IMG/VR virus record: IMGVR_UViG_3300045988_095223
Reading direction: 5' to 3' (one strand)
Origin: a virus
DNA length: 32,195 nucleotides
In this document: positions 63 to 18,944 of the stretch, one piece after another
How positions within the stretch are numbered: the first letter of the stretch is position 1
Layout: every line of letters begins with the position of its first letter
Made by a program: the position numbers and the translations under genes
Notes under the pieces: model-generated
The model's database searches: none
What the model was told of the DNA's origin: nothing
Seen by the model: only the letters and a program-made list of their open reading frames with translations

Positions 63-425
63 TTTATCTGCTAGTCTATTTATACTATCTTTGCAGAAAC
101 GAGTTCCTAGAGCCTCAAAATAAGCCATAGCGGGTGCTTTCCCATCCCTTTCAGTATCCCAATTCTTTCTTTCTTCGGTTGTTTTTATTGCTCTATCTAT
201 TTCTATTTGTGTTTTTAATTCTATTATGTCTTTGGTAAGTCTTGCTATTACTTCTCCTATTAAGTAATTAAGATTAGAATAAACCTCTATATTATGAGCA
301 TAGAAATACATTGTATTAGGTTCATCTATAATGTTTTTAAATACTTCTTGATACATACTAGCCAATTCTTTTTCACTTATCCTTTTTATATTAAAGGGAT
401 TGAATAAAAATAATTTTTCTTCCAT
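1..425 (-). CDS. Hypothetical protein, 5' part of a gene that runs off the window start and continues at 32088..32133 (156 aa once circularised)
   Basis: ATG at 425..423 opens a frame to position 1. The same frame continues through the repeated end to a TAA at 32088..32090 (425 + 46 = 471 nt = 157 codons). No recognisable motif. Confidence 0.6.
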   Translation of the reverse strand, partial: MEEKLFLFNPFNIKRISEKELASMYQEVFKNIIDEPNTMYFYAHNIEVYSNLNYLIGEVIARLTKDIIELKTQIEIDRAIKTTEERKNWDTERDGKAPAMAYFEALGTRFCKDSINRLADKECSLKRFKNAYTSTENKINA

Positions 426-446
426 TTACTCATCACTCTCTACTTT

Positions 447-803
447 CTAACTAATAATTCCATTTTTTCTTAATGTTTTTAAATCCTCTGTTAATTCTTT
501 TTGAAATTTTTCCATATCTTTTGTAAACTCTGCTATATTCCAACTATCGCACCACCAACTATCATAAGGTGTTTTTATTTGAACATAAGGGTATATTTCA
601 GTTCCACAAAAACAACATCTTTCTAAATTTATTGATAAATCGAAACTACCGCCGCAACAACTATAACTTTTATAAAATGATGTTGAATTTATTTCAACAG
701 GTCTATGAATACTATCATAATATTTACTAAAACCCATATCATTTAATAATTTCATTGTTTCTTCTGTCAAATGTGTTATTTTAGGTTTACTATTTCTTAA
801 CAT
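447..803 (-). CDS. Hypothetical Cys-rich protein
   Basis: ORF track, 118 aa; CC..CCFC cysteine clusters; start overlaps the upstream stop. Confidence 0.5.
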   Translation of the reverse strand: MLRNSKPKITHLTEETMKLLNDMGFSKYYDSIHRPVEINSTSFYKSYSCCGGSFDLSINLERCCFCGTEIYPYVQIKTPYDSWWCDSWNIAEFTKDMEKFQKELTEDLKTLRKNGIIS

Positions 804-1060
804 TATCTCACCACCTTTAATATATCTAATAATTCACTCGGCTTGCTTTCTTCTTCAAACCAATCATTTGCACCATGTGTCCAATCTCGAACCCATTCTA
901 TTGCTTTATCTATTGTTCTTTTATATACATCTCTTGTTTGTATTATATCATCTCTAGTGCTTGTTTCATAAATGATAAACTCTGCTACTTCATCTGGAAT
1001 ATCATAATCTTTACCATTTATATTTATTTTTCCTTTACTTAATTTAATATTATATTTCAT
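803..1060 (-). CDS. Hypothetical protein
   Basis: ORF track, 85 aa; TAATG start/stop coupling with the upstream small ORF. Confidence 0.5.
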   Translation of the reverse strand: MKYNIKLSKGKININGKDYDIPDEVAEFIIYETSTRDDIIQTRDVYKRTIDKAIEWVRDWTHGANDWFEEESKPSELLDILKVVR

Positions 1061-1218
1061 TATTTCCCTCCTTTTATTTTTTGTACCTTTTCAAGCATAG
1101 CCATTACTAAGAATGATGTCTTGCTTTGGCCTGTCAACTTTGTTGCTTTTTCTAATTCATTAAACTCCCATTCAGAAAGCCTAATATTTAATACTCTTGT
1201 TTTTGTTTTCTTTCTCAT
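1060..1218 (-). CDS. Ribbon-helix-helix (CopG/Arc-like) DNA-binding protein, 52 aa, not in the ORF track
   Basis: Hand translation: MRKKTKTRVLNIRLSEWEFNELEKATKLTGQSKTSFLVMAMLEKVQKIKGGK. It shows a beta-strand/helix/helix pattern typical of RHH. AGGAGA Shine-Dalgarno lies 5 nt upstream, and the stop overlaps the next ATG (TAATG). Confidence 0.5.
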   Translation of the reverse strand: MRKKTKTRVLNIRLSEWEFNELEKATKLTGQSKTSFLVMAMLEKVQKIKGGK

Positions 1219-1226
1219 ATTATCTC

Positions 1227-1433
1227 CTATCTACAATATTGGTCATATAATTCACAATATTGATTTTTATATTCTTTTAAATTATCAATTTCTTCTTGTT
1301 GTTTTTCTATTTCTGCATAATAATCTTCTAATTTATCAACTAATTCCTCAACAGATACTAAATCTTGATTTTTAAATATATCATTTAATACACCACTATT
1401 AATATCTTTTAAATTAATATATACTTCGTTCAT
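1227..1433 (-). CDS. Hypothetical coiled-coil protein
   Basis: ORF track, 68 aa, in an operon-like tight array. Confidence 0.45.
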   Translation of the reverse strand: MNEVYINLKDINSGVLNDIFKNQDLVSVEELVDKLEDYYAEIEKQQEEIDNLKEYKNQYCELYDQYCR

Positions 1434-1696
1434 TATCTAAACCTCCTTTTCTTTCTTGTTATTTCCTCTCTTTTTAATCTATCACATTCTTCTTTACTTT
1501 TTACTTTAACAAACATATCATTAGGTAAAGTACATCCATATTTCTTTATCTGATATTTTTCTATTTCTATTATCAATTCTTCTAAATATTTGAAATTTCC
1601 ATGTTCTTTTTTAAAATTCTTTCTAAATGTATCTCTATTTGGTAAACATTTATCTTTATACAAATTAAAGTAAAAATTCAATTTAAACTCTTCCAT
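1433..1696 (-). CDS. Hypothetical basic protein
   Basis: ORF track, 87 aa. Confidence 0.45.
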   Translation of the reverse strand: MEEFKLNFYFNLYKDKCLPNRDTFRKNFKKEHGNFKYLEELIIEIEKYQIKKYGCTLPNDMFVKVKSKEECDRLKREEITRKKRRFR

Positions 1697-2289
1697 TATT
1701 TCCCTCCTAATTCTTTATAATATTCCCAAATAAACCCACCTGCTGTTCTATTGTAATGTTTGCAGCAAAAAGTAATGTTGTTATGTAAAATGCCTAATTC
1801 TCTTTCAATATCCATCGTACTATTCCAAACCTTTATAACTTCACCATTTTTGTTTTTTTGAATAATTTTCTTTGATTTTCTTTTGCCATTATTACTGCTT
1901 GCTTTTCTCACATTCTCACATAATCCATTATCCCATGCATATCTAACATTTTGTTTTTGACTACACCATTCTAGATTTTCAATTCTATTATCATTTTTAA
2001 TTCCATTAATATGATTTATACAAGAATAGTTATTTGGATTAGGAATAAAGGCTTGTGCTATTATTCTGTGCAAAAATAAATTTTTTCTTATTCCATTTTT
2101 ATCTGTTAACTTTACATATTTATAGCCCAATTTATGTGTTCCTATTGATATATATTTATTAATTTCTTTTTCTTCTATCTCCTTTTTATTTATATTGTAT
2201 TTTTTGTTTTTTATTTTCTTTACATTACCTAAATTACTAATTTGATATAATCCTTCGTATCCTTTTATATCTTTCCATATTTCTTTCAT
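1696..2289 (-). CDS. Free-standing HNH homing endonuclease (NUMOD4-like N-terminus plus HNH_3-like core)
   Basis: WKDIKGYEGLYQISNLGNV at the N-terminus. HRIIAQAF...INHINGIKNDNRIENLEWCSQKQN forms an HNH core. Paralogous to the intron ORF at 4841..5389. Confidence 0.75.
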   Translation of the reverse strand: MKEIWKDIKGYEGLYQISNLGNVKKIKNKKYNINKKEIEEKEINKYISIGTHKLGYKYVKLTDKNGIRKNLFLHRIIAQAFIPNPNNYSCINHINGIKNDNRIENLEWCSQKQNVRYAWDNGLCENVRKASSNNGKRKSKKIIQKNKNGEVIKVWNSTMDIERELGILHNNITFCCKHYNRTAGGFIWEYYKELGGK

Positions 2290-2297
2290 ATAACCAC

Positions 2298-2945
2298 CTA
2301 TTTTGCTAACTCATTATAATATTTATAAACTCCGCTTACCCAATATTGATTAAGGTTGTTAGGGTCATTATCTGCTCCGATAGGAGCGTATTTAGCACTA
2401 ATCTCTTCGATAACATCTAATCCTAAATCTATATACTTTGTCTTTAAATTATTTACAAAAAACTCTATCCCCTCATCTAAACTACTAAAATTCATTAAAC
2501 TACCATTTTTAAAGTTTCCACCCACATTATTTTTTTCTTTAAATGCTACTGATGTATATTTGCCTGTTTCATGCATTGATATAGCAACTGCTAATTTCCA
2601 ATCAACGCCATAATCTTGTGCCACTTTCTTAATTTTGCAAGATACTTCATCTAAAGTACATTCATTTGACAAATCTTCTATTTTTTCCAAACTCTCTAAT
2701 TCGGCATTTTTTTGTGATTTAAGAGACTTTTCTTCTTCTTGGTCTATTTGTATTACTTCTTTGTTTTCATTTGTTTCTGCTTTAGCAATTAAGTCTGAGC
2801 ATATAAATAAGTTACTATATACAAGTCCACACATAAAACCTATGAAAAATAGTATCAAAACCTTTTTAACCTTACCCCATAATTTGTTTATTTCTTTTTT
2901 TCTTTTATAACTTTTTCTAGTTGTTACCTCTTTATTCTTTTTCAT
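2298..2945 (-). CDS. Membrane-anchored peptidoglycan hydrolase (glucosaminidase/LytD-like domain)
   Basis: N-terminal TM segment (VLILFFIGFMCGLVYSNLFI). C-terminal VDWKLAVAISMHETGKYTSVAFKEKNNVGGNF resembles the Glucosaminidase family. Confidence 0.5.
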   Translation of the reverse strand: MKKNKEVTTRKSYKRKKEINKLWGKVKKVLILFFIGFMCGLVYSNLFICSDLIAKAETNENKEVIQIDQEEEKSLKSQKNAELESLEKIEDLSNECTLDEVSCKIKKVAQDYGVDWKLAVAISMHETGKYTSVAFKEKNNVGGNFKNGSLMNFSSLDEGIEFFVNNLKTKYIDLGLDVIEEISAKYAPIGADNDPNNLNQYWVSGVYKYYNELAK

Positions 2946-4040: not shown

Positions 4041-4724
4041 TTATTTTCCAATATACATTGAGAATGTTGTTATAGGTTTCTTTGGTACCCCCGCGTACCC
4101 ATCAAATCCTTTGGCTTTTATCAAGTCTTTTTGATAAGGATATCCATTTACTCTATAATAAGCATATTGGTAAGGTCTAATATTGTCTGGTGTATAATAG
4201 TAACATTCTACTAACGATATAGGGTCTCCATTACCAGCCCAACCAGACATATAGTTATCTATATCGCAGTCAGTTATCCAGCCTAAGGTTTTTCCACTTA
4301 CTGTAGTTACCCTATATTTAATTCCACCTTTATCTACTCTGATGGCAAGCCCAATTATAGGGCTTCCCTCATAGCCAGCATAATCTTCTAAGTTTTTAAC
4401 TTCTGGAAGCCAACCATGTTTTTGTGTTTTAACTCTATAATAAACATTAACTTCATTTGAAACAGGGTTATCTTCTAATTTAGCCTTTATCATATTTAAG
4501 AACCTATCCCAACCTTTATCCATTGTTCTATGAGGGCAATATTTTTTATCAGGTGCATAATCATAATGTCTTTTTACTACTGATATATCCCAACCATATT
4601 TTTTAAGTAAATCTGCTATTAATTCGGCTGCATTTTCTTCTGCTTTGTCAAATCTTTCTCCACCAGATTTAGAATAACATATTTCTATTGCTATAGTTGT
4701 TCTGTTGCCTGGACCATTACCATC
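4041..4724 (-). CDS. Endolysin exon 2: C-terminal half of the N-acetylmuramoyl-L-alanine amidase (Amidase_2/PGRP) domain plus ChW-like cell-wall-binding repeats
   Basis: DGNGPGNRTTIAIEICYSKSGGERFDKAEENAAEL...KKYCPHR continues the amidase fold begun in exon 1. Repeats such as YRVKTQKHGWLPEVKNLEDYAGYEGSPIIGLAIRV resemble Clostridial hydrophobic-W repeats. Exon 1 (228 nt) + exon 2 (684 nt) = 912 nt, in frame. Confidence 0.85.
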   Translation of the reverse strand, partial: DGNGPGNRTTIAIEICYSKSGGERFDKAEENAAELIADLLKKYGWDISVVKRHYDYAPDKKYCPHRTMDKGWDRFLNMIKAKLEDNPVSNEVNVYYRVKTQKHGWLPEVKNLEDYAGYEGSPIIGLAIRVDKGGIKYRVTTVSGKTLGWITDCDIDNYMSGWAGNGDPISLVECYYYTPDNIRPYQYAYYRVNGYPYQKDLIKAKGFDGYAGVPKKPITTFSMYIGK

Positions 4725-5580
4725 CATTTGTATTCAACACAGGTCGTTAATCTGTGTTCGTTCTTTTACGAACTGCTTTATGTTTCCATAAAGATTAGAC
4801 TATATCATTATCCTTTTTCAAGGATACTCTCCATTTCCACTCACTTGAGTGTACTCCCTTTCGGGATAGTCGTTGAACCTTCATATTGTTTCCATATATA
4901 ACCATAAGCGGTTTTTCTTTTTCCTCTTATACATCTACCTATATTGCCACTGATATTTTTATCTTTGCCTAAATGTATCAATGCTTCCCTACAAGTATCG
5001 TATATTTTTATTAAATTGCCTTGTAAATCATATTGTGCTATTCCATATTTAACTTCGTTAGTTAAATTATTGTTTATTGCATGTATTCTATTTTCTTTAT
5101 GTGTTACCCACTCTAAATTATTTAATTTATTATTTTTTTTATTACCATCTATATGATTTATTTCTTCTTTTTGTTCTTGACTAGAAAAAGCCAGCATTAC
5201 TAATCTGTGAACTTTTGGACATTTATATAAAGAATTAGTTCCTCTTAAATCATAATATAAATATCCGCTACTATCAACCGATGGTTTCATAAATCTTTTT
5301 CTACATGGAGTGTATAATCTGCCATCATCATAAATAAAATATCCTTTGCAATTTTCAAATCCGTTTACTTCGCTTAATTCTTTTTTCATATTACCACCAA
5401 ATTAATTATACTACAATTGGCATAATTTGTCAACTTAGTGATGGAAACAATATGCTTGGTTGCTGATTGCCCATTGTACATACTTTAGATTTTTACACTT
5501 TGGTACTAAAGCCTTTAGGGTGTTCCAGCAATTAAAAGAGTTTTCTTATACTATTGCTAATATAAGGAGCAATTTTGTTT
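4725..5580 (-). mobile_element. Group I self-splicing intron (about 856 nt) in the endolysin gene, carrying an HNH homing endonuclease ORF
   Basis: Exon 1 ends in U (..GCG AGU|) and the intron ends in G (..CAAAUG|GAU). GCUC, 10 nt into the intron, can pair with exon GAGU to give the U.G wobble of P1. Conserved core strands are AACGACUAU (4874..4866) and GAUAUAGUCUAAUC (4806..4793), where GACUAU/AUAGUC forms a P7-like pairing. Confidence 0.85.
4841..5389 (-). CDS. Intron-encoded HNH homing endonuclease (HNH_3-like)
   Basis: HRLVMLAFSS...INHIDGNKKNNKLNNLEWVTHKENRIHA. It lies wholly inside the endolysin interruption, and its 3' end overlaps the ribozyme core strand AACGACUAU. Confidence 0.8.
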   Translation of the reverse strand: MKKELSEVNGFENCKGYFIYDDGRLYTPCRKRFMKPSVDSSGYLYYDLRGTNSLYKCPKVHRLVMLAFSSQEQKEEINHIDGNKKNNKLNNLEWVTHKENRIHAINNNLTNEVKYGIAQYDLQGNLIKIYDTCREALIHLGKDKNISGNIGRCIRGKRKTAYGYIWKQYEGSTTIPKGSTLK

Positions 5581-5808
5581 ACTCGCATGCCAACCATTCC
5601 TATCAAGTGGAAGTCCTTGCACTATTTCTTTGTCATCAACAGCATAGTGGAAAGATGTTTCATAGTTATTATTTGTCATATATGCTATTTCGTTTCTAGC
5701 ACTCGCATCATTAGCAGTATTATGTACTGTTATTCCTTTTGGTGTCATTTCATAAGGGCATTTTATACCCCATTTACTTTCTGGTACTAATCTCTTTATT
5801 ATTTCCAT
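5581..5808 (-). CDS. Endolysin exon 1: N-terminal part of the Amidase_2 domain
   Basis: MEIIKRLVPESKWGIKCPYEMTPKGITVHNTANDASARNEIAYMTNNNYETSFHYAVDDKEIVQGLPLDRNGWHAS closely parallels PlyG/PlyL-type amidases (recalled: ..ITVHNT.ND..A.NE..YM..N....SFH.AVDD......P..RNAWACGDGNGSGN). The ORF-track tail KQNCSLY is intron read-through. Confidence 0.85.
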
Positions 5809-6286: not shown

Positions 6287-6835
6287 TTAATCTGTTGTTT
6301 TTGTATATAATAGTGTTATATATTTAGTCCAACTAGTATTCCATCCGCCTGTTGTAAATATATATATATTCTCTTTATTTACATAAGCATAACAATTATC
6401 AGTAAAATTTCCAGCATAACCAATAATAGGTAAACTATAAGATGTTCCTGTTGTCTCTGTGAAATACGAATTGCCATAATCAACATTTATTTCATCTACA
6501 TTGGCTATCTCATGTGGTACTGTGAAAGAACCACTTATAGTTGTTTTAAATGTAATTGTCTTTCTATATCGTGGCTTTCCAAACCAAGTTCCTATAATAG
6601 TTTCTTCCGAAGAATACATTCTCATATTTTTACTATTTGTATTTGTTTCATTCAGTGCTTCTACTAAATTAGATTTATTAGTAGTATTCAAATTACTTAA
6701 TAAACCCATATTATCATCATTTGTATTAACTACATCTTTTATTTCATTTAAATCTGTGGCATTGCACTTATTTACATCTGGTATGTCAGAATTAACATTT
6801 AATGCTACCTTATCTTCATATGTTATTTTAGCCAT
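6287..6835 (-). CDS. Putative tail fibre / receptor-binding accessory protein
   Basis: Last structural gene before lysis. N/T-rich and predicted beta-rich. Call rests on position only. Confidence 0.3.
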   Translation of the reverse strand: MAKITYEDKVALNVNSDIPDVNKCNATDLNEIKDVVNTNDDNMGLLSNLNTTNKSNLVEALNETNTNSKNMRMYSSEETIIGTWFGKPRYRKTITFKTTISGSFTVPHEIANVDEINVDYGNSYFTETTGTSYSLPIIGYAGNFTDNCYAYVNKENIYIFTTGGWNTSWTKYITLLYTKTTD

Positions 6836-10279: not shown

Positions 10280-11492
10280 TTATGCTCCTCCCATTCCATA
10301 ATTATAATCGTTTTTAGAACCACCACTAAATGTTTTAATATTATTAACCATTTGTCCTAATGGGTCTTGTTCCATATTATTATTTACTACTACATTAACT
10401 TGTGGGCTTAAATTAGTGCTTGAACTTCCATATAGGCTAGGAGATAAACTAAACATATCATCAAACATTCCTCCGACTGTTGAATTAACTTGTCCTTTCA
10501 TATCTTCCATACCTTTTTCTAAACCAACCATATTCATCTTACCTATCCAAGCAAACTCTGTTGATGGACTATGTACTCCAAATATTCCTCTGATTTTTTT
10601 CATTATTGAATTACCTATACCTGCTATCTTGTCAAGTACCCAATCTTTAGCAGACTTAATACCATTCCAAAGACCTTGTATTAAGTTTTTACCGCAATCC
10701 CACATCATTCTAGGCATTCCTTTAAAATATTCAATTACATCAACAACAATTTCTTGTACTCTTGCTAGCAATATTGGAATAGCATTTAATATACCAGCAA
10801 TTAAGCCACCTAATAATTTGAAACCAGCCTCTATGAATAAAGGTAAATTATCAATTAAGATAGGTATAGTGCTAATAATAGCATCTATTATAACTGGTAT
10901 CAATGTAGGTAATTGCTCTGCTAATGCTTGAATTATCATAACTAGCCCTTGAATTAATGAAGTAAGTATAACTGGTAGCATATTTGCCAATTCTTGAATT
11001 ATAGTAGGCAACATACCCATTAATATTTGAATAATACCAGGTAATGCTTGAACTAGCCCCATTATTAATGTTGATGTTCCTTGTATTAGTGCTGGTAATA
11101 CCGCTTGAAGTAAAGGACCAATTAAAGGTATTAAATTATTCAATAAAGTAGTTAAGCCTGTTATTATTTGAGGTGCCATTTTTATTATAGCATTTGATAT
11201 ATTTGTTCCTGCGGTAGTAAAGGTACTTATTACTTCTTCAATTCCACCCGCACCACTTAAGAAATTACTAAATGCTGACTTCGCACTATTTATTGAACCG
11301 CTTATAGTAGTAGAGGCTTCTTTCGCTGTCGTTCCTGTTACATCTAATTCTCCTTGAATTACATGAATAGCATTAAACACATCATTTAAATTAGAAATGT
11401 CGTAATGTACTCCCGATATTTTTTCAGCATCTGATAGTAATCTTTCCATTTCTGTTTTTGTTCCGCCATAGCCAAGTTTCAAATTATCTAAC
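10280..11492 (-). CDS. Tape measure protein exon 2
   Basis: Begins (M)LDNLKLGYGGTKTEMERLLSDAEKISG.., the second half of the conserved TMP motif. It is followed by long hydrophobic/helical repeats (LIPLIGPLLQAVLPALIQG...). Confidence 0.85.
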
Positions 11493-11879
11493 CATTTACA
11501 CCCCTAGTTTCCTAGTACTTTAACACTTATTTAAAAGTGGGATTAGACTATATCTTTATCTCAAACTTCCAATCTTTTTTATTTCCTTTTTTATAATATC
11601 TTCCATATTCAATATTGCAAGTTAGATATTATATATTTGAGATAGTATGCACTTCCAATATCGTATCAATAGATATTGTACTGAGTAACGAACTCATAGT
11701 CGTTTGACCTTCCTATTTCTAGGCTTGGCACTGGATAACCATATCTTTTGGACTTAGGCTTCCCCAGTTAGCAAGATTATCTAAATAAGTCATTTCCTCC
11801 TTATATTTTAATCTCACACCCTTGATAAGGTTCACATACACTTACTTAATTATTACTAATTAAGCAGACATTAATTTTT
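11493..11879 (-). mobile_element. Group I self-splicing intron (387 nt, no full-length ORF) in the tape measure gene
   Basis: Exon 1 ends ..UAU ACG AU| (U) and the intron ends ..GUAAAUG| (G). Splicing yields ACG AUG UUA GAU = T M L D, and 482 + 1213 nt = 1695 nt, in frame. It has the same core strands as the endolysin intron: AACGACUAU (11704..11696) and GAUAUAGUCUAAUC (11554..11541). Confidence 0.85.
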
Positions 11880-12361
11880 ATCGTATAATTCTGCTTAGCG
11901 AAACCTTGATAAGCGTTTTGAATATTCTCAATGGCAGTGCCGAATTTATTTGAGTTGTCAGCCATATCTTGAATAGCCATGTCGCCGACTTTGGCTGCTT
12001 CCGCAGTATCTCCGCCTAGGCTTTGCAACAAACTAGCACTAAATGAAGTTATTTGCTCCATATATTTATTAGCATCTATTCCTGCTGTCATATAAGCCTT
12101 TTTAGAGTTTTCTATAACTGTATCGGCACTATCTTTGAAAAGTGTTTCAACACCACCGATATTCTGCTCTAAATCAGCAACACCTTGCAAGGCATCTTTG
12201 CCAAGCCCTAATAAAGAACTACCTACTTTTTCAATAGCACTAGACATTAAGTTACCAATAGCAACAGTACTCGCTTTCAATTTACCAGCGACACCATTAG
12301 TCTTTTTTTCTAGGTCTTTATCATCTCCTTTAAACTTGAAGATGACTTCTCCTCCATTCAT
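11880..12361 (-). CDS. Tape measure protein exon 1
   Basis: ..NIQNAYQGFAKQNYT is the first half of the conserved TMP motif AYQGFAKQNYTMLDNLKLGYGG. The ORF-track tail IKINVCLISNN is intron read-through. Confidence 0.85.
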
Positions 12362-12377
12362 TTATTCCACCTCCTTA

Positions 12378-12414
12378 TTATAAAATAAAGGGCTGGGCTT
12401 TTAACCCAACCCTT
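12378..12414 (-). terminator. Strong stem-loop / intrinsic terminator between the major tail protein and tape measure genes
   Basis: Minus strand: AAGGGTTGGG-ttaaaag-CCCAGCCCTT (10 bp including one G.U) followed by tattttat. Confidence 0.6.
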
Positions 12415-12420
12415 ATAGGT

Positions 12421-12894
12421 TTATCCTGTTACAACTTCTCCTTTACCAGTTACAACAATAGTCAATGCAAACTCGCCACTATCTTCGGCAGGACCGCCTA
12501 AATCACTAAAGTTCAAAGTGCAAGGTACTTTATATTTAGTATAAGTCAATGCTCCTTCTTGAACTCCTGTTAATAATTCAAATTGTACTAATTGATTATT
12601 AAATTGAGCAACAGTACCATCTTTGATTAAAGTATGTAAATTACCTAATATAGCAGTAATAGCAGCATTATTCATGTCAATTTTAACAGTGGTATCAATA
12701 GATATGGCAGCACCAGTGATTAAACTTCTTTGAATGGCATCGCACCAAACATACCAGTCTTGTTGCTCGAAATCAGTTGTCAAACCAACTTCGGTAGTTG
12801 TACACATAGCAGTAAATGCAGGTACTGCACTAGTACCAGTATTTAAACCTAAGTTTTTGATGACTTCTCTATTATTTACATAAAATTCATTCAT
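12421..12894 (-). CDS. Major tail protein
   Basis: 157 aa, directly upstream of the tape measure, followed by a terminator hairpin. Composition is typical of siphovirus tail tube proteins. Confidence 0.6.
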   Translation of the reverse strand: MNEFYVNNREVIKNLGLNTGTSAVPAFTAMCTTTEVGLTTDFEQQDWYVWCDAIQRSLITGAAISIDTTVKIDMNNAAITAILGNLHTLIKDGTVAQFNNQLVQFELLTGVQEGALTYTKYKVPCTLNFSDLGGPAEDSGEFALTIVVTGKGEVVTG

Positions 12895-12909
12895 ATTTAC
12901 ACTTCCTTT

Positions 12910-13359
12910 CTATAAATCTTTTTCATAAATCTTACTTATAATACATTGTAAGGTTGAATTATACCCAACTCTTCTGATATCCATGTACTCTATTGCTTGT
13001 GGATTAACATATTGAGTAAATATAATTTGCCACCTTTCCAATTTATTAGTTTCTTTATTTTCAACTTCTATTCTTTCCGATTTTCCTATTAGATTACCTA
13101 TTAATAAAGATAATTCTTTACACTCTTTAATTGTAAGTCCATATATGTCAACCATATAATAATTATACATAGGCAATATATCGCCATAGAATACTTGTTT
13201 TTGTCCGCTTTGTTCTTGCACGACTATTACCCTACTATCATTATCATTTGTTGAATATTCGGCTTTTATTTTCCATTTGTCAGTGGTATAGCCACTAACT
13301 ATGTTTTGAAGATATTTAATTAAGATTAATTGTTTCTTTTCTAATAATTCTCTTGTCAT
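12910..13359 (-). CDS. Neck / tail-completion protein
   Basis: Position between the head-tail connectors and the major tail protein. Confidence 0.4.
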   Translation of the reverse strand: MTRELLEKKQLILIKYLQNIVSGYTTDKWKIKAEYSTNDNDSRVIVVQEQSGQKQVFYGDILPMYNYYMVDIYGLTIKECKELSLLIGNLIGKSERIEVENKETNKLERWQIIFTQYVNPQAIEYMDIRRVGYNSTLQCIISKIYEKDL

Positions 13360-13715
13360 TTCAATTCATTCTCCTTTATAGCAATTCCAACGATACTCTT
13401 TTTTTGCTTAGTATATATTTCTTGATACCATTTACCAAAAGTACCAGGTTCAGTCCAATTAGTAGTATTAGGCATAACCCATACATATTTGGCATAGTTA
13501 GTATAAGAACCTATATAATAATCTCCATTACTTCCTCTAACTCCTGCTGCCATTGAGGTTTGTCTCATGTGGACAACTCCTTTTCTTCTTGACATAGGAA
13601 TATGAGGAAATGTTCTATCAAGTGTCTGCCTTGCTATTGCATACATTATCTTATCAGAAGCCTCTAATACTTCCTTTTTCTTTCCTGGATACCAATTTAC
13701 TTTAACATCAGCCAT
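13356..13715 (-). CDS. Neck / head-tail joining protein (minor capsid protein-like)
   Basis: Position only; ATGA overlap with the downstream gene. Confidence 0.4.
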   Translation of the reverse strand: MADVKVNWYPGKKKEVLEASDKIMYAIARQTLDRTFPHIPMSRRKGVVHMRQTSMAAGVRGSNGDYYIGSYTNYAKYVWVMPNTTNWTEPGTFGKWYQEIYTKQKKSIVGIAIKENELK

Positions 13716-14035
13716 TATTTAACCACTATAATCTTATTCTCTACTCTATTAAATATCCAACTATCTTGAACTTTTAACACCGTATGGACTTTATTATCAG
13801 CATATTTGCCTAGATAAATTATTTGGTCTCCTACTTTTACATCAACAAGCCTTCCAACTTGATAATAACCAGTAGCCTCAGGCACTGTATAAATACCGAA
13901 CCTTATAGCACTTTCGCAATCATAAGGGCAACATTTAATTGTGATTTCTTTATAATTAGTATCATCAAACACTTCATCATTTTCATCACGATTAAATTGC
14001 CTTAATGTTGCTTTCATACCATTTACTAGAAACAT
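13715..14035 (-). CDS. Head closure / head-tail joining protein (106 aa from MFLVNG..)
   Basis: The ATG at 14035 sits 1 nt after the upstream TAA. The ORF-track N-terminal extension to 14116 overlaps the upstream gene by 80 nt and is unlikely to be real. Confidence 0.4.
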   Translation of the reverse strand: MFLVNGMKATLRQFNRDENDEVFDDTNYKEITIKCCPYDCESAIRFGIYTVPEATGYYQVGRLVDVKVGDQIIYLGKYADNKVHTVLKVQDSWIFNRVENKIIVVK

Positions 14036-14036
14036 T

Positions 14037-14417
14037 TTATTCGCCTCCAAATGGTATAGTAAGAGCCATATTGCTAGACATTGGTGTACCTCTATATAGA
14101 TATCCATTATTAGCAAGTATTCTTAGCGCTAAAGTAGAATAATCAGTCTTTAAAGGGGAACTCATTGTTCCTGCTTTTATATCTTTATCAAAATCAACAA
14201 ATGGAATATCGTGTTCTAATACGAACCTCATTTGTTCCATAGAAGCATTTTTAATAGGCAAAGGGACACTAATTGCATTCCAACTAGCATCCCTATATCT
14301 TAAGCCTATTTGTGAGAAAATTACCTCACATACTGCTTCTATCTGCCAAGTTGAAATATCAGCATTTGAGTATTCGGGATATTTATTCTCGAACTCCTCT
14401 TTTGTGAAAAACTGCAT
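14037..14417 (-). CDS. Head-tail adaptor (connector) protein
   Basis: First gene after the capsid gene; size and position typical of gp6-like adaptors. Confidence 0.45.
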   Translation of the reverse strand: MQFFTKEEFENKYPEYSNADISTWQIEAVCEVIFSQIGLRYRDASWNAISVPLPIKNASMEQMRFVLEHDIPFVDFDKDIKAGTMSSPLKTDYSTLALRILANNGYLYRGTPMSSNMALTIPFGGE

Positions 14418-14436
14418 TTTCCCACCTCATTTCTAT

Positions 14437-15591
14437 TTAGGCAATTACTATATCGCCACTAAAGGCATCAGAGTAGTTACCATATTTATCAATACCATAC
14501 ACAGAAACATGATAATTTCCTGCTTCAATAGGTGTACCTGTGATAGCACCAGTTGTAGGGTTAAGTGTTAATCCTGCTGGTAAACCACCTGCTTCAAACT
14601 TCTCAACATCAGTTCCACTAAATGGAGTAGTTTGAGTATATTCTTGTGCATGAGTTCCTGCATCGAATGAACCTGCAGATACGATAGGTAGAGTTTCAAC
14701 CAATTTAATTACTGCTTCAGGTCTTACTACTTTTGCTCCGAACATAACATTTCCCTCAACAACGAAGTATCCTGGGTATCCAGGGAAGTTACCATTGTAT
14801 TGAGCAAATGAACTCCAGAATGTATCACCAACTGTACCAACTTCATTAGCGAAGTATCCAACTACATTTGTATCTTTACCTTCTTTATCTTTTTCTATTA
14901 CATTACTATTGATTTGGAATACACTAACACCATAAGCATTAGCAACTTGTCCCATATCAACACCTTCAACACCTGCTCTTGTTTCATATTTAAGAATTGA
15001 TGTTAAACTTGATACAAAGTAAGCATAAGCATTTGAACTTAGTCCTAATAGATATCCATCATAGATGTTTCTATCGAATAATTTAGATTTTAAATCATTA
15101 ATTAATTCAATAGTTTCAGTTCCAGTTGATGGAGCCCATTTAGTACATTGACCATCTGTATAAGCCATTGAACCATCTTGAGGTCCTGTAATATCAGCAT
15201 TTAATTTATTAAAGCCATATACATCGATTTGTCTAGAGATTTGAGCCTCTTTTAATTCGATTTGCCCTTCGATTGCTCTTTCAATACCACTACCCATCAC
15301 TATTGGACTTACTCTAAATGAATAATCCATAGGTAATTCAGTTAAGTCAACTTTTACTGAATTGTAAGTAGCAAGTTCATTTGTAATTCCTCCTTGTGCG
15401 ATTTCTACATTATTTCTTACATTTAATGCAGTGTCTAATTGCTTAACAATCTCAATAATTGGAGTGCCAGTTCTTCCAACTTCAAACCATCTTCTGTCTA
15501 GCATTTTATAGAATTGAGAATTGTAAAGTAAATTAGCATAAGTTCTTTTCATTAAACCTTGTAGGTCTAAATTTACTCCTGTAAAATTCAT
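14437..15591 (-). CDS. Major capsid protein with a C-terminal Ig-like (He_PIG / cadherin-like) domain
   Basis: 384 aa following the scaffold gene. The C-terminal GGLPAGLTLNPTTGAITGTPIEAGNYHVSVYGIDKYGN is the classic putative-Ig motif. Confidence 0.7.
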   Translation of the reverse strand: MNFTGVNLDLQGLMKRTYANLLYNSQFYKMLDRRWFEVGRTGTPIIEIVKQLDTALNVRNNVEIAQGGITNELATYNSVKVDLTELPMDYSFRVSPIVMGSGIERAIEGQIELKEAQISRQIDVYGFNKLNADITGPQDGSMAYTDGQCTKWAPSTGTETIELINDLKSKLFDRNIYDGYLLGLSSNAYAYFVSSLTSILKYETRAGVEGVDMGQVANAYGVSVFQINSNVIEKDKEGKDTNVVGYFANEVGTVGDTFWSSFAQYNGNFPGYPGYFVVEGNVMFGAKVVRPEAVIKLVETLPIVSAGSFDAGTHAQEYTQTTPFSGTDVEKFEAGGLPAGLTLNPTTGAITGTPIEAGNYHVSVYGIDKYGNYSDAFSGDIVIA

Positions 15592-15631
15592 AATTTCTTC
15601 CTCCTTTTCTTTCCTCTATATTTAACTAAAA

Positions 15632-16189
15632 TTACTTAGTTACAGGTATCATTAAATCTTTAATACTAGTACCTCTTGTTATCTTTATATCTTTACCAGT
15701 ATTAGCATTGTTTCCATTTACTCCGCCCTCATTAGGTGCTTGTGTAAATGGTATGTTGTTTTTCTTTTCTGCTTCTGGGAAATATGTATTTTTAAATCTA
15801 GTTACTATTCCTTCAATTGCCTTATCATCATCTTTTTCATCAGCATAAAGACTATTTCTTAACTTAACTACTTCATCAAAATTTTCCTCTTTAAATCCTT
15901 TTTTAACAAGTTTATTCTCTAGACTTAATCTAGTCATCTTATCATTTGTTTCACTTAAAGTTTTAACAGTATTATTGTAGTTAGTTTCTAGGCTTGTATA
16001 GTCTCCTTGAAGTTTAGTATAATCTTCTTTCTTTACATATCCTGAATAATCAGCCTTAGGAATATCGCTATTCTTTGTATAGCCTTTATAAAGGTCTTTT
16101 TCCATAGCAGAAACATCTAGGTCATCATTACTTATAGTAATATCTTTATTTTTTAGATATTTAGTAATATCAAAATTCATATTTATCAT
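15632..16189 (-). CDS. Scaffolding protein
   Basis: Acidic, helical 185-aa protein between the minor head protein and the capsid gene. Confidence 0.6.
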   Translation of the reverse strand: MINMNFDITKYLKNKDITISNDDLDVSAMEKDLYKGYTKNSDIPKADYSGYVKKEDYTKLQGDYTSLETNYNNTVKTLSETNDKMTRLSLENKLVKKGFKEENFDEVVKLRNSLYADEKDDDKAIEGIVTRFKNTYFPEAEKKNNIPFTQAPNEGGVNGNNANTGKDIKITRGTSIKDLMIPVTK

Positions 16190-16258
16190 TCTCCTTTTTT
16201 AGAAGTGATAAAAGTGTGTCGCGACTGCTAATCTTTTATAGACTTAATAGCAATTGGT

Positions 16259-17233
16259 CTATTTATTTAATTCTTTTATAGTAGCATTTATCTTTTTTAT
16301 TTTAGCATTTGTTTTATCTACCTCACTTCCATTTCCTAAATTTTCATATATCTTTTTATCATTTTTTAATTTAGTTCTTTTTAGTTGTAGGGCTTGTATC
16401 TTTTGCTTTTTTTCATAATCTTCTTGCCACTCATCAGAATTATAATCATTTTCTTGTATCTGGTCTTTATCCCAATATATAGTCCATTGGTGTCTGCAAT
16501 TAGGATGGCCTACACCGCCAGCAATTGCTTCTTCTTGTGGATAATATCTAACACCATCAGAAGTATATCCACTTCCTCCATTTTTGTCATATACCTTACC
16601 TTGATAAGGCATACATAAAGGACAAGCAAATGTATGGGCTGGTAAGTATAAAAGTTCTTTCTCTAATAAATTAGCATCGTACATTGTTCTATTCCATCCT
16701 GCATGATTGAGATTAGTATTATAAAGCATTGAATTATAATCGGCAATGTTGTGCCAACTTCTTACACTTCCATCTTTATTATGGTATGGTATAGTTGCTT
16801 GCACTTCATCATATTTAATTACTAATTTAGATAAATAACTTTCTCTATCTATATAACTTTTGTTTGCTGTTTTTCTTCTGCCTTTATAATATTCATCAAT
16901 GTTATATTTATATTTCTTCTCTACATTTTGGAATACTTTTTCACTTGCTAATTCATATATTTGCTTATATTCGGCATCGGGGTTTATTATTTTATTTCCC
17001 TCTAAATCTCTAGCCATTATCATATCTTCGAGTTCTTTTATTCTTTCAGCCATATATTTATGGTTTACCTTTTCCCATATCTTTGCTGTTTCTTTTTTAA
17101 ACTCTGCTAGAGTTTTATTCTTATATAGGTAATCGAAGAATACTCGTTTAGTTTCATACATTAGTTTATAATATTCATTCTTTGAATAGTAAGCACTATC
17201 TTCTATAAATAAACTAAATGGGTCTTTCTTCAT
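16259..17233 (-). CDS. Minor head protein (SPP1 gp7 / Mu F-like head morphogenesis protein)
   Basis: ..ACPLCMPYQGKVY...GHPNCRHQW motif. Start/stop are coupled to the portal gene. Confidence 0.7.
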   Translation of the reverse strand: MKKDPFSLFIEDSAYYSKNEYYKLMYETKRVFFDYLYKNKTLAEFKKETAKIWEKVNHKYMAERIKELEDMIMARDLEGNKIINPDAEYKQIYELASEKVFQNVEKKYKYNIDEYYKGRRKTANKSYIDRESYLSKLVIKYDEVQATIPYHNKDGSVRSWHNIADYNSMLYNTNLNHAGWNRTMYDANLLEKELLYLPAHTFACPLCMPYQGKVYDKNGGSGYTSDGVRYYPQEEAIAGGVGHPNCRHQWTIYWDKDQIQENDYNSDEWQEDYEKKQKIQALQLKRTKLKNDKKIYENLGNGSEVDKTNAKIKKINATIKELNK

Positions 17234-18597: not shown

Positions 18598-18944
18598 TTA
18601 ATATCAACTCCTTCATATATTAGAGTTTCAATATGAGCCTCTCTTTTCTTTTCATCAGTCAATTTATATTTATAACTTTGAACTACTATTTGTACCTTTC
18701 TATTAGTTCCTAGTAAATGTTTCATGCCTCTTACTTTTACTACATAGAACTTACCCATAGGAGCGAAGTCTTTATCTATCTTTTTTTTATCTATACATTG
18801 ACCATTTAAATATAAATATAAAGTCCATTTCTTCTTATTTATTAGATATTTTTTAAATTTTTGCACTTTTTCTACAATTTTATCAATAATAATAGTAAAA
18901 ATGGTACTTAAATTATCAATCAAATTATTGAATAGAGTTCTCAT
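18594..18944 (-). CDS. Hypothetical protein (116 aa from MRTLFNN..)
   Basis: GAAAGGAG Shine-Dalgarno before the ATG at 18944. The ORF-track extension to 18983 runs into the terminator T-tract. Confidence 0.45.
   Translation of the reverse strand: MRTLFNNLIDNLSTIFTIIIDKIVEKVQKFKKYLINKKKWTLYLYLNGQCIDKKKIDKDFAPMGKFYVVKVRGMKHLLGTNRKVQIVVQSYKYKLTDEKKREAHIETLIYEGVDIK

What the first reader, a model, noticed from the sequence alone, without database searches (positions are those of the whole stretch)
4725..5580. The two introns are paralogues: same ribozyme core, one with and one without a homing endonuclease
- Both introns contain the identical 9-mer AACGACUAU (4874..4866 and 11704..11696).
- Both contain the identical 14-mer GAUAUAGUCUAAUC (4806..4793 and 11554..11541).
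- Both terminate in AAAUG|G.
- Both begin with an A-rich 10-nt stretch (AAACAAAAUU versus AAAAAUUAAU) before the putative internal guide sequence.

This points to one intron lineage occupying two unrelated late genes (tail and lysis) in a 32-kb genome. In the endolysin copy, the endonuclease ORF's 3' end runs into the core strand AACGACUAU, so translation and ribozyme folding may compete. The pair offers a natural with-ORF versus without-ORF comparison for intron mobility.
Basis: seen in the sequence. Interest (0 to 1): 0.65.

Follow-up and report, generated by a model that had tools for sequence, protein, structure and literature searches.

The report
Two unrelated-lineage phage group I introns
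This small phage carries two real self-splicing group I introns, one in its lysis gene and one in its tail gene. The sequences they share are the standard catalytic-core motifs of nearly all phage introns of this type, so they are independent arrivals from two known intron lineages, not copies of each other.

Summary

**Interpretation: only partly holds.**
- Both elements are group I introns of the phage IA type. Each has P7.1 and P7.2, and covariation supports both structures.
- The shared motifs lie in homologous elements. The 9-mer is J6/7 plus the 5' strand of P7 (element R). The 14-mer is J8/7 plus the 3' strand of P7 (element S).
- R and S are family-wide. They recur in T4 td and nrdB and in almost every other phage intron I fetched.
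- Beyond R and S the two introns do not align.

**Intron 1 (endolysin)**
- It is T4 td/nrdB-like, with an HNH homing endonuclease gene in the P6 loop.
- It has a same-site orthologue in another phage.
- It is absent from the closest relatives of this phage.

**Intron 2 (tape measure gene)**
- It belongs to a different clade, found at the same tape-measure site in Lactococcus and Streptococcus phages.
- That clade has two extra hairpins between P3 and P4 and carries its endonuclease gene in the P8 loop.
- The window copy has lost the endonuclease gene by deletion. Near-identical relatives carry intact, frameshifted and fully deleted versions.

**Verdict:** new members of known kinds. Interest is moderate to low.

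The parts
5581..5808 (-). Endolysin exon 1 (76 codons, ends ...GCGAGU; U at -1)
   Evidence: In frame with exon 2. The Amidase_2 match spans the junction. One-piece tblastn hits to intron-less lysins.
4725..5580 (-). Intron 1: 856-nt group I intron, T4 td/nrdB-like IA2 clade, carrying a homing endonuclease gene
   Evidence: - Rfam Intron_gpI partial hits of 30.5 and 16.8 bits, both below the gathering score.
- Intron-less alleles in L017, L020, L022 and L029 join exactly at its ends.
- Same-site orthologue in L036 with compensatory changes in P1, P2, P4, P8, P9 and P9.2.
- The 3' domain structure is 95.2% paired, with 25 of 37 pairs covarying.
4041..4724 (-). Endolysin exon 2
5567..5572 (-). 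Intron 1 internal guide sequence (UUGCUC). GCUC pairs with exon GAGU, giving the U-G wobble at the splice site.
   Evidence: Read directly from the sequence. L036 shows the compensatory pair GGGU/GCCC.
5405..5433 (-). Perfect TTGACA-17-TATAAT promoter-like site inside L6, upstream of the endonuclease gene's GGTGG Shine-Dalgarno sequence and ATG
   Evidence: 12 of 12 consensus matches; positions. Function is inferred, not shown.
4841..5389 (-). Homing endonuclease gene (182 aa), HNH_3 with weak NUMOD1 and I-HmuI-like matches, lying in the P6 loop. Its last 48 nt (4888..4841) overlap the 3' strand of P6, J6/7, P7, P7.1 and part of P7.2; the UGA stop is in P7.2.
   Evidence: Pfam: HNH_3 37.6 bits, above cut-off; NUMOD1 and I-HmuI_NUMOD-like below cut-off. 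69% aa identity to the endonuclease in L036. Structure map.
4866..4874 (-). Intron 1 element R: J6/7 plus the 5' strand of P7 (AACGACUAU)
   Evidence: R pairs with S to form P7 (PMC3984707).
4838..4865 (-). Intron 1 P7.1 (CCC-GAAA-GGG) and P7.2 (CACUC-AAGU-GAGUG), the hallmark of subgroup IA
   Evidence: Covariation. The 23-mer containing P7.2 occurs in 75 IMG/VR loci.
4793..4806 (-). Intron 1 element S: the 3' part of J8/7, the 3' strand of P7, and J7/9 (GAUAUAGUCUAAUC)
4737..4793 (-). Intron 1 P9, P9.1 and P9.2. The P9.2 loop AUUAACGAC is identical to that of T4 td.
11880..12361 (-). Tape measure gene exon 1 (ends ...UAUACGAU, codon phase 2)
11493..11879 (-). Intron 2: 387-nt group I intron of the 'tape-measure-site' clade, a derivative that has lost its endonuclease gene by deletion
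   Evidence: - Rfam Intron_gpI 36 bits. The short form in L022 scores 43.5 bits. Both are below the gathering score of 50.
- The same site is occupied in Lactococcus phage 38502, in Str-PAP-1, and in the ~32-kb relatives whose intron I extracted.
- Family structure is 97.3% paired, with 31 of 85 pairs covarying.
10280..11492 (-). Tape measure gene exon 2
11773..11830 (-). Intron 2 extra hairpins between P3 and J3/4-P4. I call them P3.1 (CCUU-AUC-AAGG) and P3.2 (GAGAUUA...UAAUCUU). Intron 1 lacks them.
   Evidence: Both hairpins covary (helices 3 to 6). The motif also occurs in the site-1 intron of relatives and in Enterocloster phage CB457P2.
11696..11704 (-). Intron 2 element R (J6/7 plus the 5' strand of P7)
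11657..11695 (-). Intron 2 P7.1 (GAGU-UCGUU-ACUC) and P7.2 (AAUAUC-UAUUGAUAC-GAUAUU). Their sequences and loops differ from those of intron 1.
   Evidence: Covariation; comparison table.
11558..11643 (-). Intron 2 P8 (AUCUCAAA/UUUGAGAU) enclosing the remnant of a deleted HNH endonuclease gene. The ORF leader and the last 22 codons (11613..11548, IEYGRYYKKGNKKDWKFEIKI*) survive; the stop codon UAG lies in the 3' strand of P7.
   Evidence: L027 has the intact 160-aa NUMOD4+HNH_3 ORF here. L029 has a frameshifted copy. L017 and others have a clean hairpin. The window lacks 456 nt relative to L029.
11541..11554 (-). Intron 2 element S (J8/7, the 3' strand of P7, J7/9)
11502..11541 (-). Intron 2 P9 and P9.1, Twort/K-like recA-intron type; there is no P9.2
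   Evidence: About 91% identity over the last 66 nt to Staphylococcus K-like and Twort introns. Covariation.

Best explanation
The window holds two independent self-splicing group I introns of the phage IA2-type family. They share the subgroup's catalytic architecture because all such introns do. They come from two different, widely dispersed clades and reached this genome separately by homing or horizontal transfer.

**Intron 1 (endolysin)**
- It is a T4 td/nrdB-like intron.
- Its HNH endonuclease gene sits in the P6 loop, has its own consensus promoter, and overlaps the ribozyme core at its 3' end.
- It looks like a recent gain.

**Intron 2 (tape measure gene)**
- It belongs to a clade that targets the conserved QNYT|MLDNLKLGYGG site.
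- That clade has two extra hairpins between P3 and P4 and normally carries an HNH endonuclease gene in the P8 loop.
- In this genome a 456-nt deletion has removed the endonuclease gene, leaving an immobile but structurally intact ribozyme.

**Shown versus inferred:** boundaries, structures, covariation, relatives, presence/absence and deletion states are shown. Splicing, endonuclease activity and direction of transfer are inferred.
For: **Boundaries and splicing logic**
- fix the boundaries.
- Both introns have U at -1 paired to an internal-guide G, and a terminal G.

**Structures**
- Intron 2 family: 97.3% of pairs formed and 31 of 85 pairs with compensatory changes. Slid controls give 31 to 42% paired.
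- Intron 1 clade, 3' domain: 95.2% paired and 25 of 37 pairs compensatory.

**Motifs are generic**
- R and S occur in nearly every fetched phage intron, including T4 td and nrdB.

**Separate clades**
- blastn between the two introns finds only the R and S blocks.
- By identity, intron 2 ranks 30th of 35 for intron 1.
- Identity is 59% on the common alignment, lower than intron 1 versus the T4 introns.
- The two are sisters in 0 of 200 bootstraps. The six-intron core group of intron 1 excludes intron 2 in 200 of 200. The 7-taxon intron 2 clade is recovered in 147 of 200.
- All 75 IMG/VR loci carrying intron 1's P7.2 23-mer match intron 1's 3' half. Only 2 match intron 2.

**Same-site relatives**
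- L036 has intron 1 in its lysin: 72% nt identity across the intron, 69% aa for the endonuclease. The host lysin is only 45 to 64% aa identical.
- Lactococcus phage 38502 and Str-PAP-1 have intron 2 at the same tape-measure site.

**Recent gain of intron 1**
- Relatives that are 85 to 99% identical to this phage lack it.
- Against L029, 4 synonymous changes lie at -4..+6 around the insertion site and none in the other ~70 flanking nt.

**Decay series of the intron 2 endonuclease gene**
- Intact in L027, frameshifted in L029, partly deleted in the window and L020, fully deleted in L017 and others.

**Literature**
- Phage 'IA2' is heterogeneous, with distinct branches (PMC11878797).
- ORFs that overlap the core are a known arrangement (PMC3984707).
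Against: - Neither intron reaches Rfam's gathering score of 50 bits. The best scores are 30.5, 36 and 43.5.
- Subgroup assignment rests on P7.1/P7.2 and on homology to td, nrdB and Twort introns, not on subgroup-specific models.
- P1 of intron 2 is short: three exon pairs (G-C, A-U and the U-G wobble) plus one intron A-U pair.
- The alignable core is short (138 to 160 columns), so deep branching order is weakly resolved. The intron 2 clade has 74% bootstrap support.
- The cores look mosaic. L019 and similar loci combine intron 2's P6-P7 with intron 1-type P7.1 and P7.2. 'Lineage' therefore applies to modules, not necessarily to whole introns.
- No RNA data show splicing.
Confidence: 0.85

Rival explanations
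1. The two introns are paralogues: one intron lineage spread within this genome from one late gene to the other, one copy keeping and one losing (or never gaining) the endonuclease ORF.
For: - Identical 9-mer and 14-mer, far above chance for this window.
- Both are IA-type introns with the same order of core elements and a similar P6 design (CC-AAG-stem ... stem-AA-GGU).
- Both endonuclease genes are HNH_3.
Against: - The motifs are family-wide R and S elements.
- Nothing else aligns between the two.
- Identity is 59%, at or below intron 1 versus introns of E. coli, Staphylococcus and Prevotella phages.
- They are never sisters in the tree.
- P2, the P3-P4 region, P5, P7.1, P7.2, P8 and P9 all differ.
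- The endonuclease gene sits in L6 in one and L8 in the other.
- Intron 2's own ORF-bearing form exists in L027 and is unlike intron 1's endonuclease.
- Published true paralogues are 80% identical overall and 90 to 92% in the core (PMC2504315).
Confidence: 0.04
2. Collaborative (trans) homing. The intron 1 endonuclease also cuts the intron-less tape-measure site and mobilises ORF-less intron 2.
For: Trans homing of ORF-less or defunct introns is known in T4-like phages (PMC3984707). Both insertion sites have T|G at the junction.
Against: - The two target sites match at only 5 of 20 positions around the junction (my comparison of the sequences).
- Intron 2's lineage has its own cognate endonuclease gene (L027).
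- Every close relative whose TMP intron I extracted carries intron 2, and the four that cover the lysin (L017, L020, L022, L029) lack intron 1.
Confidence: 0.03
3. One or both elements are decayed, non-splicing insertions, so the lysin or tape measure gene is a split pseudogene or is expressed as separate polypeptides.
For: Rfam scores are below the gathering threshold. GenBank records for similar phages annotate the halves as separate CDSs.
Against: - All core helices are intact and are maintained by compensatory changes in relatives.
- Both host genes are essential late genes, and their reading frames are restored exactly by splicing.
- Intron 2 is conserved in the 14 close relatives whose intron I extracted.
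- The low Rfam scores are explained by the ORF in L6 (intron 1) and by the P3.1/P3.2 and P8 insertions (intron 2).
Confidence: 0.05

Closest known systems
Phage T4 td and nrdB group I introns (subgroup IA2; I-TevI, I-TevIII)
   Same: - Intron 1 shares R, P7.1, the P7.2 loop CAAGUG, S, P9, P9.1 (GCAGUUC..GAAC) and the identical P9.2 loop AUUAACGAC.
- The ORF lies in the P6 loop, as in td.
- The I-TevI stop codon UAA is the J6/7 of td, so that ORF also abuts the core.
   Different: - The host gene is a lysin, not td or nrdB.
- The endonuclease is HNH, not GIY-YIG.
- The ORF overlaps much further, through P7, P7.1 and into P7.2.
- Identity is only 61 to 67% over the 3' domain.
Tape-measure-gene introns of Lactococcus phage 38502 (KX160204) and Streptococcus phage Str-PAP-1 (NC_028666, second intron)
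   Same: - Same insertion site as intron 2 (QNYT|xLDNLKLGYGG).
- Same architecture, including P3.1 and P3.2.
- About 74 to 81% nt identity over the parts that align by blastn.
- HNH gene in the P8 loop, ending in the 3' strand of P7.
   Different: They keep the endonuclease gene; the window copy has lost it. Their P9 region is longer.
Group I introns in the tape measure gene of Bacillus cereus-group prophages (Tourasse and Kolsto 2008, PMC2504315)
   Same: - Several introns at three sites in the most conserved part of the tape measure gene.
- IA1 and IA2 types.
- Copies lacking an endonuclease gene.
- Genuinely paralogous introns at neighbouring sites. The parallel here is intron 2 and the site-1 intron of relatives.
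   Different: Different phages and hosts. I did not compare sites or sequences directly. Those paralogues are 80 to 92% identical, unlike intron 1 versus intron 2.
Staphylococcus Twort / K-like phage introns (Twort orf142 introns; K-like recA-like gene intron)
   Same: The last 66 nt of intron 2 (S, P9, P9.1) are 89 to 92% identical in most of these records. They cluster on the intron 2 side of the tree.
   Different: The 5' halves, P7.1, P7.2 and host genes all differ. I did not check these introns for P3.1 and P3.2.
Streptococcus thermophilus phage lysin-gene intron and its deletion derivatives (Foley et al. 2000; cited from my own knowledge, not read here)
   Same: A group I intron in a phage lysin gene, and a population of derivatives with the ORF deleted.
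   Different: Different lysin family and site, not tested. In this window the deletion series is in the tape-measure intron, not the lysin intron.

Membership tests
Group I intron (Rfam RF00028 Intron_gpI) | Score at or above the Rfam gathering threshold (50 bits) | tested here: not met
   - No hit at the gathering threshold.
- Intron 1 scores 30.5 bits (E 1.6e-5) and 16.8 bits.
- Intron 2 scores 36 bits (E 2.5e-7).
- The short form of intron 2 in L022 scores 43.5 bits.
- The shortfall is explained by the ORF in L6 and by the lineage-specific insertions.
Group I intron | 5' splice site after a U that pairs with G of an internal guide (P1); terminal G at the 3' end; exact restoration of the reading frame | tested here: met
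   - Intron 1: GAGU|/GCUC, with the compensatory GGGU/GCCC in L036.
- Intron 2: CGAU|/GUC, a short P1.
- Terminal G at 4725 and 11493.
- Frames are restored.
Group I intron | Conserved core helices P3 to P9, with the P3/P7 pseudoknot, supported by covariation | tested here: met
   - Alignment A1 (intron 2 family): 97.3% paired, 31 of 85 pairs compensatory, including P3.
- Alignment A2 (intron 1 clade, P7 to P9.2): 95.2% paired, 25 of 37 compensatory.
- The 5' half of intron 1 is supported only by comparison with L036 and Internexus.
Group I intron | Self-splicing with a guanosine cofactor | not testable with these tools
   Needs in vitro transcription and splicing, or RT-PCR.
Subgroup IA2 (phage type) | P7.1 and P7.2 hairpins between P7 and the 3' strand of P3 | tested here: met
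   Present in both introns, with covariation.
Subgroup IA2 (phage type) | Best match to a subgroup-specific model (GISSD IA2 versus IA1 or IA3) | not testable with these tools
   Only the single Rfam model is available. Intron 1 is clearly homologous to T4 td and nrdB, which the literature classes as IA2. Intron 2 clusters with Twort-like introns. PMC11878797 reports that phage 'IA2' is heterogeneous.
Paralogous intron pair (recent common origin within a genome or population) | High identity across the ribozyme, with differences concentrated in P1/P10 and the periphery (benchmark: 80% overall and 90 to 92% in the core, PMC2504315) | tested here: not met
   Only 22-nt and 20-nt blocks align. 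Identity is 59% on the 3' domain alignment. The two are never sisters.
HNH homing endonuclease (Pfam HNH_3) | HNH_3 domain above the Pfam cut-off | tested here: met
   Intron 1 ORF: HNH_3 37.6 bits against a cut-off of 24.8. NUMOD1 and I-HmuI-like NUMOD matches are just below their cut-offs. L027 intron 2 ORF: NUMOD4 47.1 bits plus HNH_3 44.2 bits.
HNH homing endonuclease | Site-specific nicking or cleavage of the intron-less allele | not testable with these tools
   Indirect support only: presence/absence polymorphism and substitutions clustered at the junction.

The most novel reading that the evidence does not exclude
The tape-measure-site clade that includes intron 2 carries a conserved two-hairpin module inserted between the 5' strand of P3 and J3/4-P4. 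Covariation supports both hairpins. The motif is GAAC-hairpin-GGUGUG-variable hairpin-GCUAAC.

- Standard group I and IA2 diagrams do not show this module.
- A full-text search for the names P3.1 and P3.2 together with 'group I intron' found no description of it.
- It could mark an undescribed structural sub-branch of phage IA introns.
- Separately, this ~32-kb phage group offers a population snapshot of the homing cycle: gain, intact endonuclease gene, frameshift, partial deletion, full deletion. It also has up to three introns within 99 nt of mature tape-measure mRNA.
Probability: 0.3. Interest if true: 0.45.

Novelty: new member of a known kind. Interest (0 to 1): 0.3.

Why it matters
**Annotation.** Both late genes, the lysin and the tape measure gene, must be joined across introns that Rfam misses at its curated threshold. 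Public records of similar phages annotate the halves as separate genes.

**Method.** An identical 9 to 14-mer shared between two group I introns is not evidence of paralogy, because the R and S core elements are shared across the whole phage IA family.

**Biology.** The useful material is not the pair inside this genome. It is the set of near-identical relatives, which show:
- the lysin intron present or absent, with a junction-restricted substitution tract;
- the tape-measure intron with an intact, frameshifted, partly deleted or fully deleted endonuclease gene;
- neighbouring tape-measure sites occupied by further introns.

This is a ready-made natural series for studying intron gain, endonuclease decay and the overlap between ORF and ribozyme. 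All of these phenomena are already known in principle.

Tried and rejected
- **Rfam at the gathering threshold, and at E <= 1 over the whole window:** no hits. Only region-limited scans gave sub-threshold Intron_gpI hits.
- **First P3 for intron 2:** I initially took the strand next to P4 (AAUCUUGC, as in the Rfam alignment). I rejected it because that strand is the 3' half of a covarying local hairpin (P3.2). The 3' strand of P3 (GCAUAC) instead pairs with GUAUG about 60 nt upstream, with a compensatory U-A to C-G change.
- **Third AACGACTAT at 18469..18477 as a possible third intron:** rejected. It lies in a continuous ORF with no S element, and relatives are collinear there.
- **Megablast against the phage collection:** no close relative of the phage itself. 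Relatives came from IMG/VR pattern scans instead.
- **Host:** not resolved. One 92 to 95% identical contig is binned as 'Bacilli bacterium' MAG291. Intron 2's P6-P7 32-mer also occurs in Clostridioides, Romboutsia and Terrisporobacter genomes, which otherwise do not match the window.
- **MAFFT global alignment of the window intron 2 against L029:** it misplaced the deletion. I read the breakpoint from BLAST coordinates and the sequences.
- **Not built:** a custom covariance model or a subgroup classifier.
Full report
**1. The observation**

All genes here are on the minus strand.
- The 9-mer AACGACTAT lies at 4866..4874 and 11696..11704. A third copy lies at 18469..18477. The expected number by chance is 0.09.
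- The 14-mer GATATAGTCTAATC lies only at 4793..4806 and 11541..11554. The expected number by chance is 0.00.
- Both introns end AAAUG|G and begin with an A-rich decamer.
- The third 9-mer sits in an uninterrupted ORF with no partner motif, and relatives are collinear there. I treat it as chance.

**2. Are these introns, and where are their ends?**

*Endolysin.*
- Joining 5808..5581 to 4724..4041 gives a 303-aa protein. Its Amidase_2 match (residues 21 to 141) spans the junction at residue 76.
- The protein aligns in one piece to intron-less lysins of Bacillus and Paenibacillus phages.
- Four IMG/VR relatives of this phage (L017, L020, L022, L029) have an uninterrupted lysin that joins exactly at 5581|4724. 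L029 is 98.8% identical in exon 1. It reads NGWHAS|DGNGPGNRTTIA, as predicted for the spliced window gene.

*Tape measure gene.*
- Joining 12361..11880 to 11492..10280 gives ...FAKQNYT|MLDNLKLGYGGTK....
- This aligns in one piece to many intron-less tape measure genes.

*Rfam.*
- Rfam's single group I model gives only sub-threshold hits: 30.5 and 16.8 bits for intron 1, 36 bits for intron 2, and 43.5 bits for a shorter allele of intron 2. The gathering score is 50.

**3. Structure of intron 1 (5580..4725, 856 nt)**

Elements in 5' to 3' order:
- P1: exon GAGU pairs with the internal guide GCUC.
- P2, P3 and P4-P5.
- P6: CC-AAG-CAUAUUG ... CAAUAUG-AA-GG. The P6 loop holds a perfect TTGACA-17-TATAAT site (5433..5405), a GGTGG Shine-Dalgarno sequence, and a 182-aa ORF (5389..4841). 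The ORF matches HNH_3, with weaker NUMOD1 and I-HmuI-like matches below Pfam's cut-offs.
- J6/7 and P7 (AACGACUAU).
- P7.1 (CCC-GAAA-GGG) and P7.2 (CACUC-AAGU-GAGUG).
- The 3' strand of P3, then P8.
- J8/7 and the 3' strand of P7 (GAUAUAGUC).
- P9, P9.1 and P9.2.

Evidence for this structure:
- A 63-kb IMG/VR phage (L036) has the same intron and endonuclease gene at the same lysin site (WHSG|DGNG). Nucleotide identity is 72% and the endonuclease is 69% identical. There are compensatory changes in P1 (GGGU/GCCC), P2, P4, P8, P9 and P9.2.
- On a 10-sequence alignment of the 3' domain, 95.2% of cells pair and 25 of 37 pairs show changes on both sides. Slid controls give 32 to 46% paired.

Overlap of the ORF with the core:
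- This arrangement is known (PMC3984707, Fig. 2b). That review states that expression of such ORFs is tightly controlled so as not to disturb folding.
- In T4 td, the I-TevI stop codon is itself the UAA of J6/7.

**4. Structure of intron 2 (11879..11493, 387 nt)**

I aligned 13 distinct members of its family. The proposed structure is 97.3% paired, and 31 of 85 pairs have compensatory changes. Slid controls give 31 to 42% paired.

Features specific to this clade:
- The 5' strand of P3 (GUAUGUG) pairs with UGCAUAC downstream of P7.2. In the 38502 group this pair becomes GUACG/CGUAC.
- Two covarying hairpins lie between P3 and J3/4-P4. I call them P3.1 and P3.2.
- P7.2 has a 9-nt loop, UAUUGAUAC.
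- P8 is AUCUCAAA/UUUGAGAU and encloses about 70 nt.
- The 3' end is a P9/P9.1 pair of the Twort/K-like type. There is no P9.2.

**5. What the shared motifs are**

- The 9-mer is J6/7 plus the 5' strand of P7. This is the classical element R.
- The 14-mer is J8/7 plus the 3' strand of P7 plus J7/9, and contains element S.
- R pairs with S to form P7, the most conserved helix of group I introns (PMC3984707).
- They are also generic. AACGACTAT with at most 1 change, and GATATAGTCT.. with at most 3 changes over the 14-mer, occur in these introns:
  - T4 td and T4 nrdB;
  - all four AR9 terL introns;
  - two Lak-B2 introns and three V1SA20 introns;
  - EF1, Twort, Romulus, PSD2002, Internexus and C41431;
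  - both Str-PAP-1 introns.
- The exact 14-mer also occurs in Lactococcus phage 38502, Lak-B2 and V1SA20.

**6. Are the two introns specifically related?**

No.
- blastn between them finds only the 22-nt P6'-J6/7-P7 block and the 20-nt J8/7-P7' block.
- I compared two fixed core blocks across 36 introns.
  - Intron 1's nearest neighbours are L036 (0.86), Lak-B2 (0.83) and EF1 (0.82).
  - Intron 2 ranks 30th of 35 for intron 1, at 0.64.
  - Intron 2's nearest neighbours are its same-site family (0.77 to 0.99), then Romulus and Twort (0.75).
  - The shuffle baseline is 0.44 +/- 0.11.
- On a common alignment, intron 1 is 59% identical to intron 2 over 138 columns. It is 67% identical to T4 nrdB and 61% to T4 td.
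  - Of the 81 identical columns, 58 are conserved across the clade.
  - Only 9 are private to the pair, and all 9 are A or T.
- In a neighbour-joining tree of 32 introns the two are never sisters (0 of 200 bootstraps). A group holding intron 1's six-intron core group and excluding intron 2 appears in 200 of 200. The 7-taxon intron 2 clade appears in 147 of 200.
- Intron 1's P7.2 23-mer occurs in 75 IMG/VR loci. All 75 match intron 1's 3' half, and only 2 match intron 2.
- The endonuclease genes differ in position (L6 versus L8). The proteins share only 35% identity over 96 aa. Pfam detects NUMOD4 only in the intron 2-lineage protein and weak NUMOD1/I-HmuI-like matches only in intron 1's.
- For comparison, genuinely paralogous tape-measure introns in B. 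cereus prophages are 80% identical overall and 90 to 92% in the core (PMC2504315).
[quoted passage not shown] That fits the picture here.

**7. Histories**

*Intron 2.*
- It sits at the same site (QNYT|xLDNL) in Lactococcus phage 38502 and in Str-PAP-1. In both it carries an HNH gene in the P8 loop, ending at the UAG within the 3' strand of P7.
- In near-identical ~32-kb relatives the same intron exists in four states:
  - an intact 160-aa NUMOD4+HNH_3 gene (L027);
  - a frameshifted copy (L029);
  - a 456-nt deletion that keeps the ORF leader and the last 22 codons (this window, 11613..11548; L020 is similar);
  - a clean P8 hairpin (L017, L018, L021, L022, L024, L033, L034).
- The natural with-ORF versus without-ORF comparison is therefore within the intron 2 lineage.

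*Intron 1.*
- It is absent from L017, L020, L022 and L029.
- Against L029, four synonymous substitutions lie at -4..+6 around the insertion site (GCGAGT|GATGGT versus GCATCT|GATGGA). There are none in the other ~70 flanking nt.
- That pattern fits a short co-conversion tract, or matching to the internal guide, after a recent gain. This is an inference.
- Its P3-P5 module is 89% identical to an intron in Bacillus phage Internexus, whereas the orthologue L036 has a different P5. The intron is therefore mosaic.

**8. Context**

- Relatives carry further tape-measure introns, between window positions 11957/11956 and between 11471/11470.
- The first is an intron 2-like paralogue with P3.1 and an L8 HNH gene.
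- The second is a 233-nt element with a different P7.
- Three insertion sites therefore fall within 99 nt of mature mRNA.
- Multi-site tape-measure introns are already described for B. cereus prophages (PMC2504315).

**9. Verdict**

These are two independently acquired members of two known phage intron clades. Splicing, endonuclease activity and direction of transfer remain inferred.

Noticed in passing
window 18469..18477 (-): A third exact AACGACTAT. It lies inside the continuous 454-aa ORF 17233..18597 with no S-element partner, and relatives are collinear there. Most likely chance, although the 9-mer is expected only 0.09 times per window.
   Followed up: yes
window 5405..5433 (-); L029 and L027 intron 2 endonuclease leader; L022 site-1 intron: A perfect TTGACA-17-TATAAT lies inside intron 1, just upstream of the endonuclease gene's Shine-Dalgarno sequence and ATG. 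The endonuclease genes of the intron 2 lineage have TTGCAA-17-TATAAT or TTGACA-17-TATAAT. In the window's intron 2 only the -35 half survives the deletion. The intron-borne endonuclease genes appear to carry their own promoters.
   Followed up: partly
relatives L017, L020, L021, L022, L024, L033, L034; equivalent to window 11957/11956 and 11471/11470: The tape measure gene of close relatives holds up to three introns within 99 nt of mature mRNA, separated by exons of 77 and 22 nt.
- Site 1 holds an intron 2-like paralogue of 364 to 865 nt. Its HNH gene is intact in L022 and deleted in L020 and L034.
- Site 3 holds a 233-nt element with P7 ACGCAUA/UAUGCU that Rfam did not detect.
- The window has GGC (C at -1) at site 3, while intron-bearing alleles have GGT.
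   Followed up: partly
window 5581..5584 and 4719..4724 compared with L029 13867..13947: Compared with the intron-less lysin of L029, four synonymous substitutions lie within -4..+6 of the intron 1 insertion site, and there are none in the other ~70 flanking nt. This looks like a short co-conversion tract or adaptation to the internal guide.
   Followed up: partly
window 5455..5543 (-); L015 1501..1590; L009 1501..1590: The P3-P4-P5 module of intron 1 is 89% identical to an intron in the DnaB-like helicase gene of Bacillus phage Internexus, and 85% to an AR9 terL intron. The same-site orthologue L036 has a different, shorter P5. This suggests modular (mosaic) evolution of the ribozyme.
   Followed up: partly
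window 11773..11830 (-); L012 ~2720; L020, L022 and L034 site-1 introns: The module GAAC-hairpin(AUC loop)-GGUGUG-variable hairpin-GCUAAC between P3 and P4 recurs in several introns, including one in Enterocloster phage CB457P2. I know of no standard group I diagram with hairpins at this position. A full-text search for the names P3.1 and P3.2 found nothing relevant.
   Followed up: partly
L019, L023, L025, L030 (IMG/VR phage contigs of 117 to 193 kb): These contain the exact 32-nt P6-J6/7-P7 of intron 2. In L019 and L023, the two I examined, the P7.1/P7.2 region that follows is intron 1-type rather than intron 2-type. This suggests chimeric cores, or convergence of P6.
   Followed up: no
L003 (Streptococcus phage Str-PAP-1, NC_028666) 360..2250: The tape measure gene carries two introns separated by a ~60-nt exon. 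The first is td-like and holds a 206-aa ORF annotated 'homing endonuclease'. The second is intron 2-like and holds an HNH ORF. The record annotates separate CDSs and no introns. Lactococcus phage C41431 has a td-like intron 7 codons downstream (LKLG|YGG).
   Followed up: partly
L032 (IMG/VR 3300031853_001041) 6476..6666 and ~1900..2470: This 8.7-kb contig carries both an intron 2-type tape-measure intron and, about 4.5 kb away, an intron 1-like 3' half (74% identity). The host gene of the second was not identified.
   Followed up: no
L171 (JAEDNL010000018.1, 'Bacilli bacterium' MAG291): A 23.5-kb MAG contig is 92 to 95% identical to window 10534..18605 and carries the short-P8 form of intron 2. 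This is the only host hint, and it could be a binning artefact.
   Followed up: no
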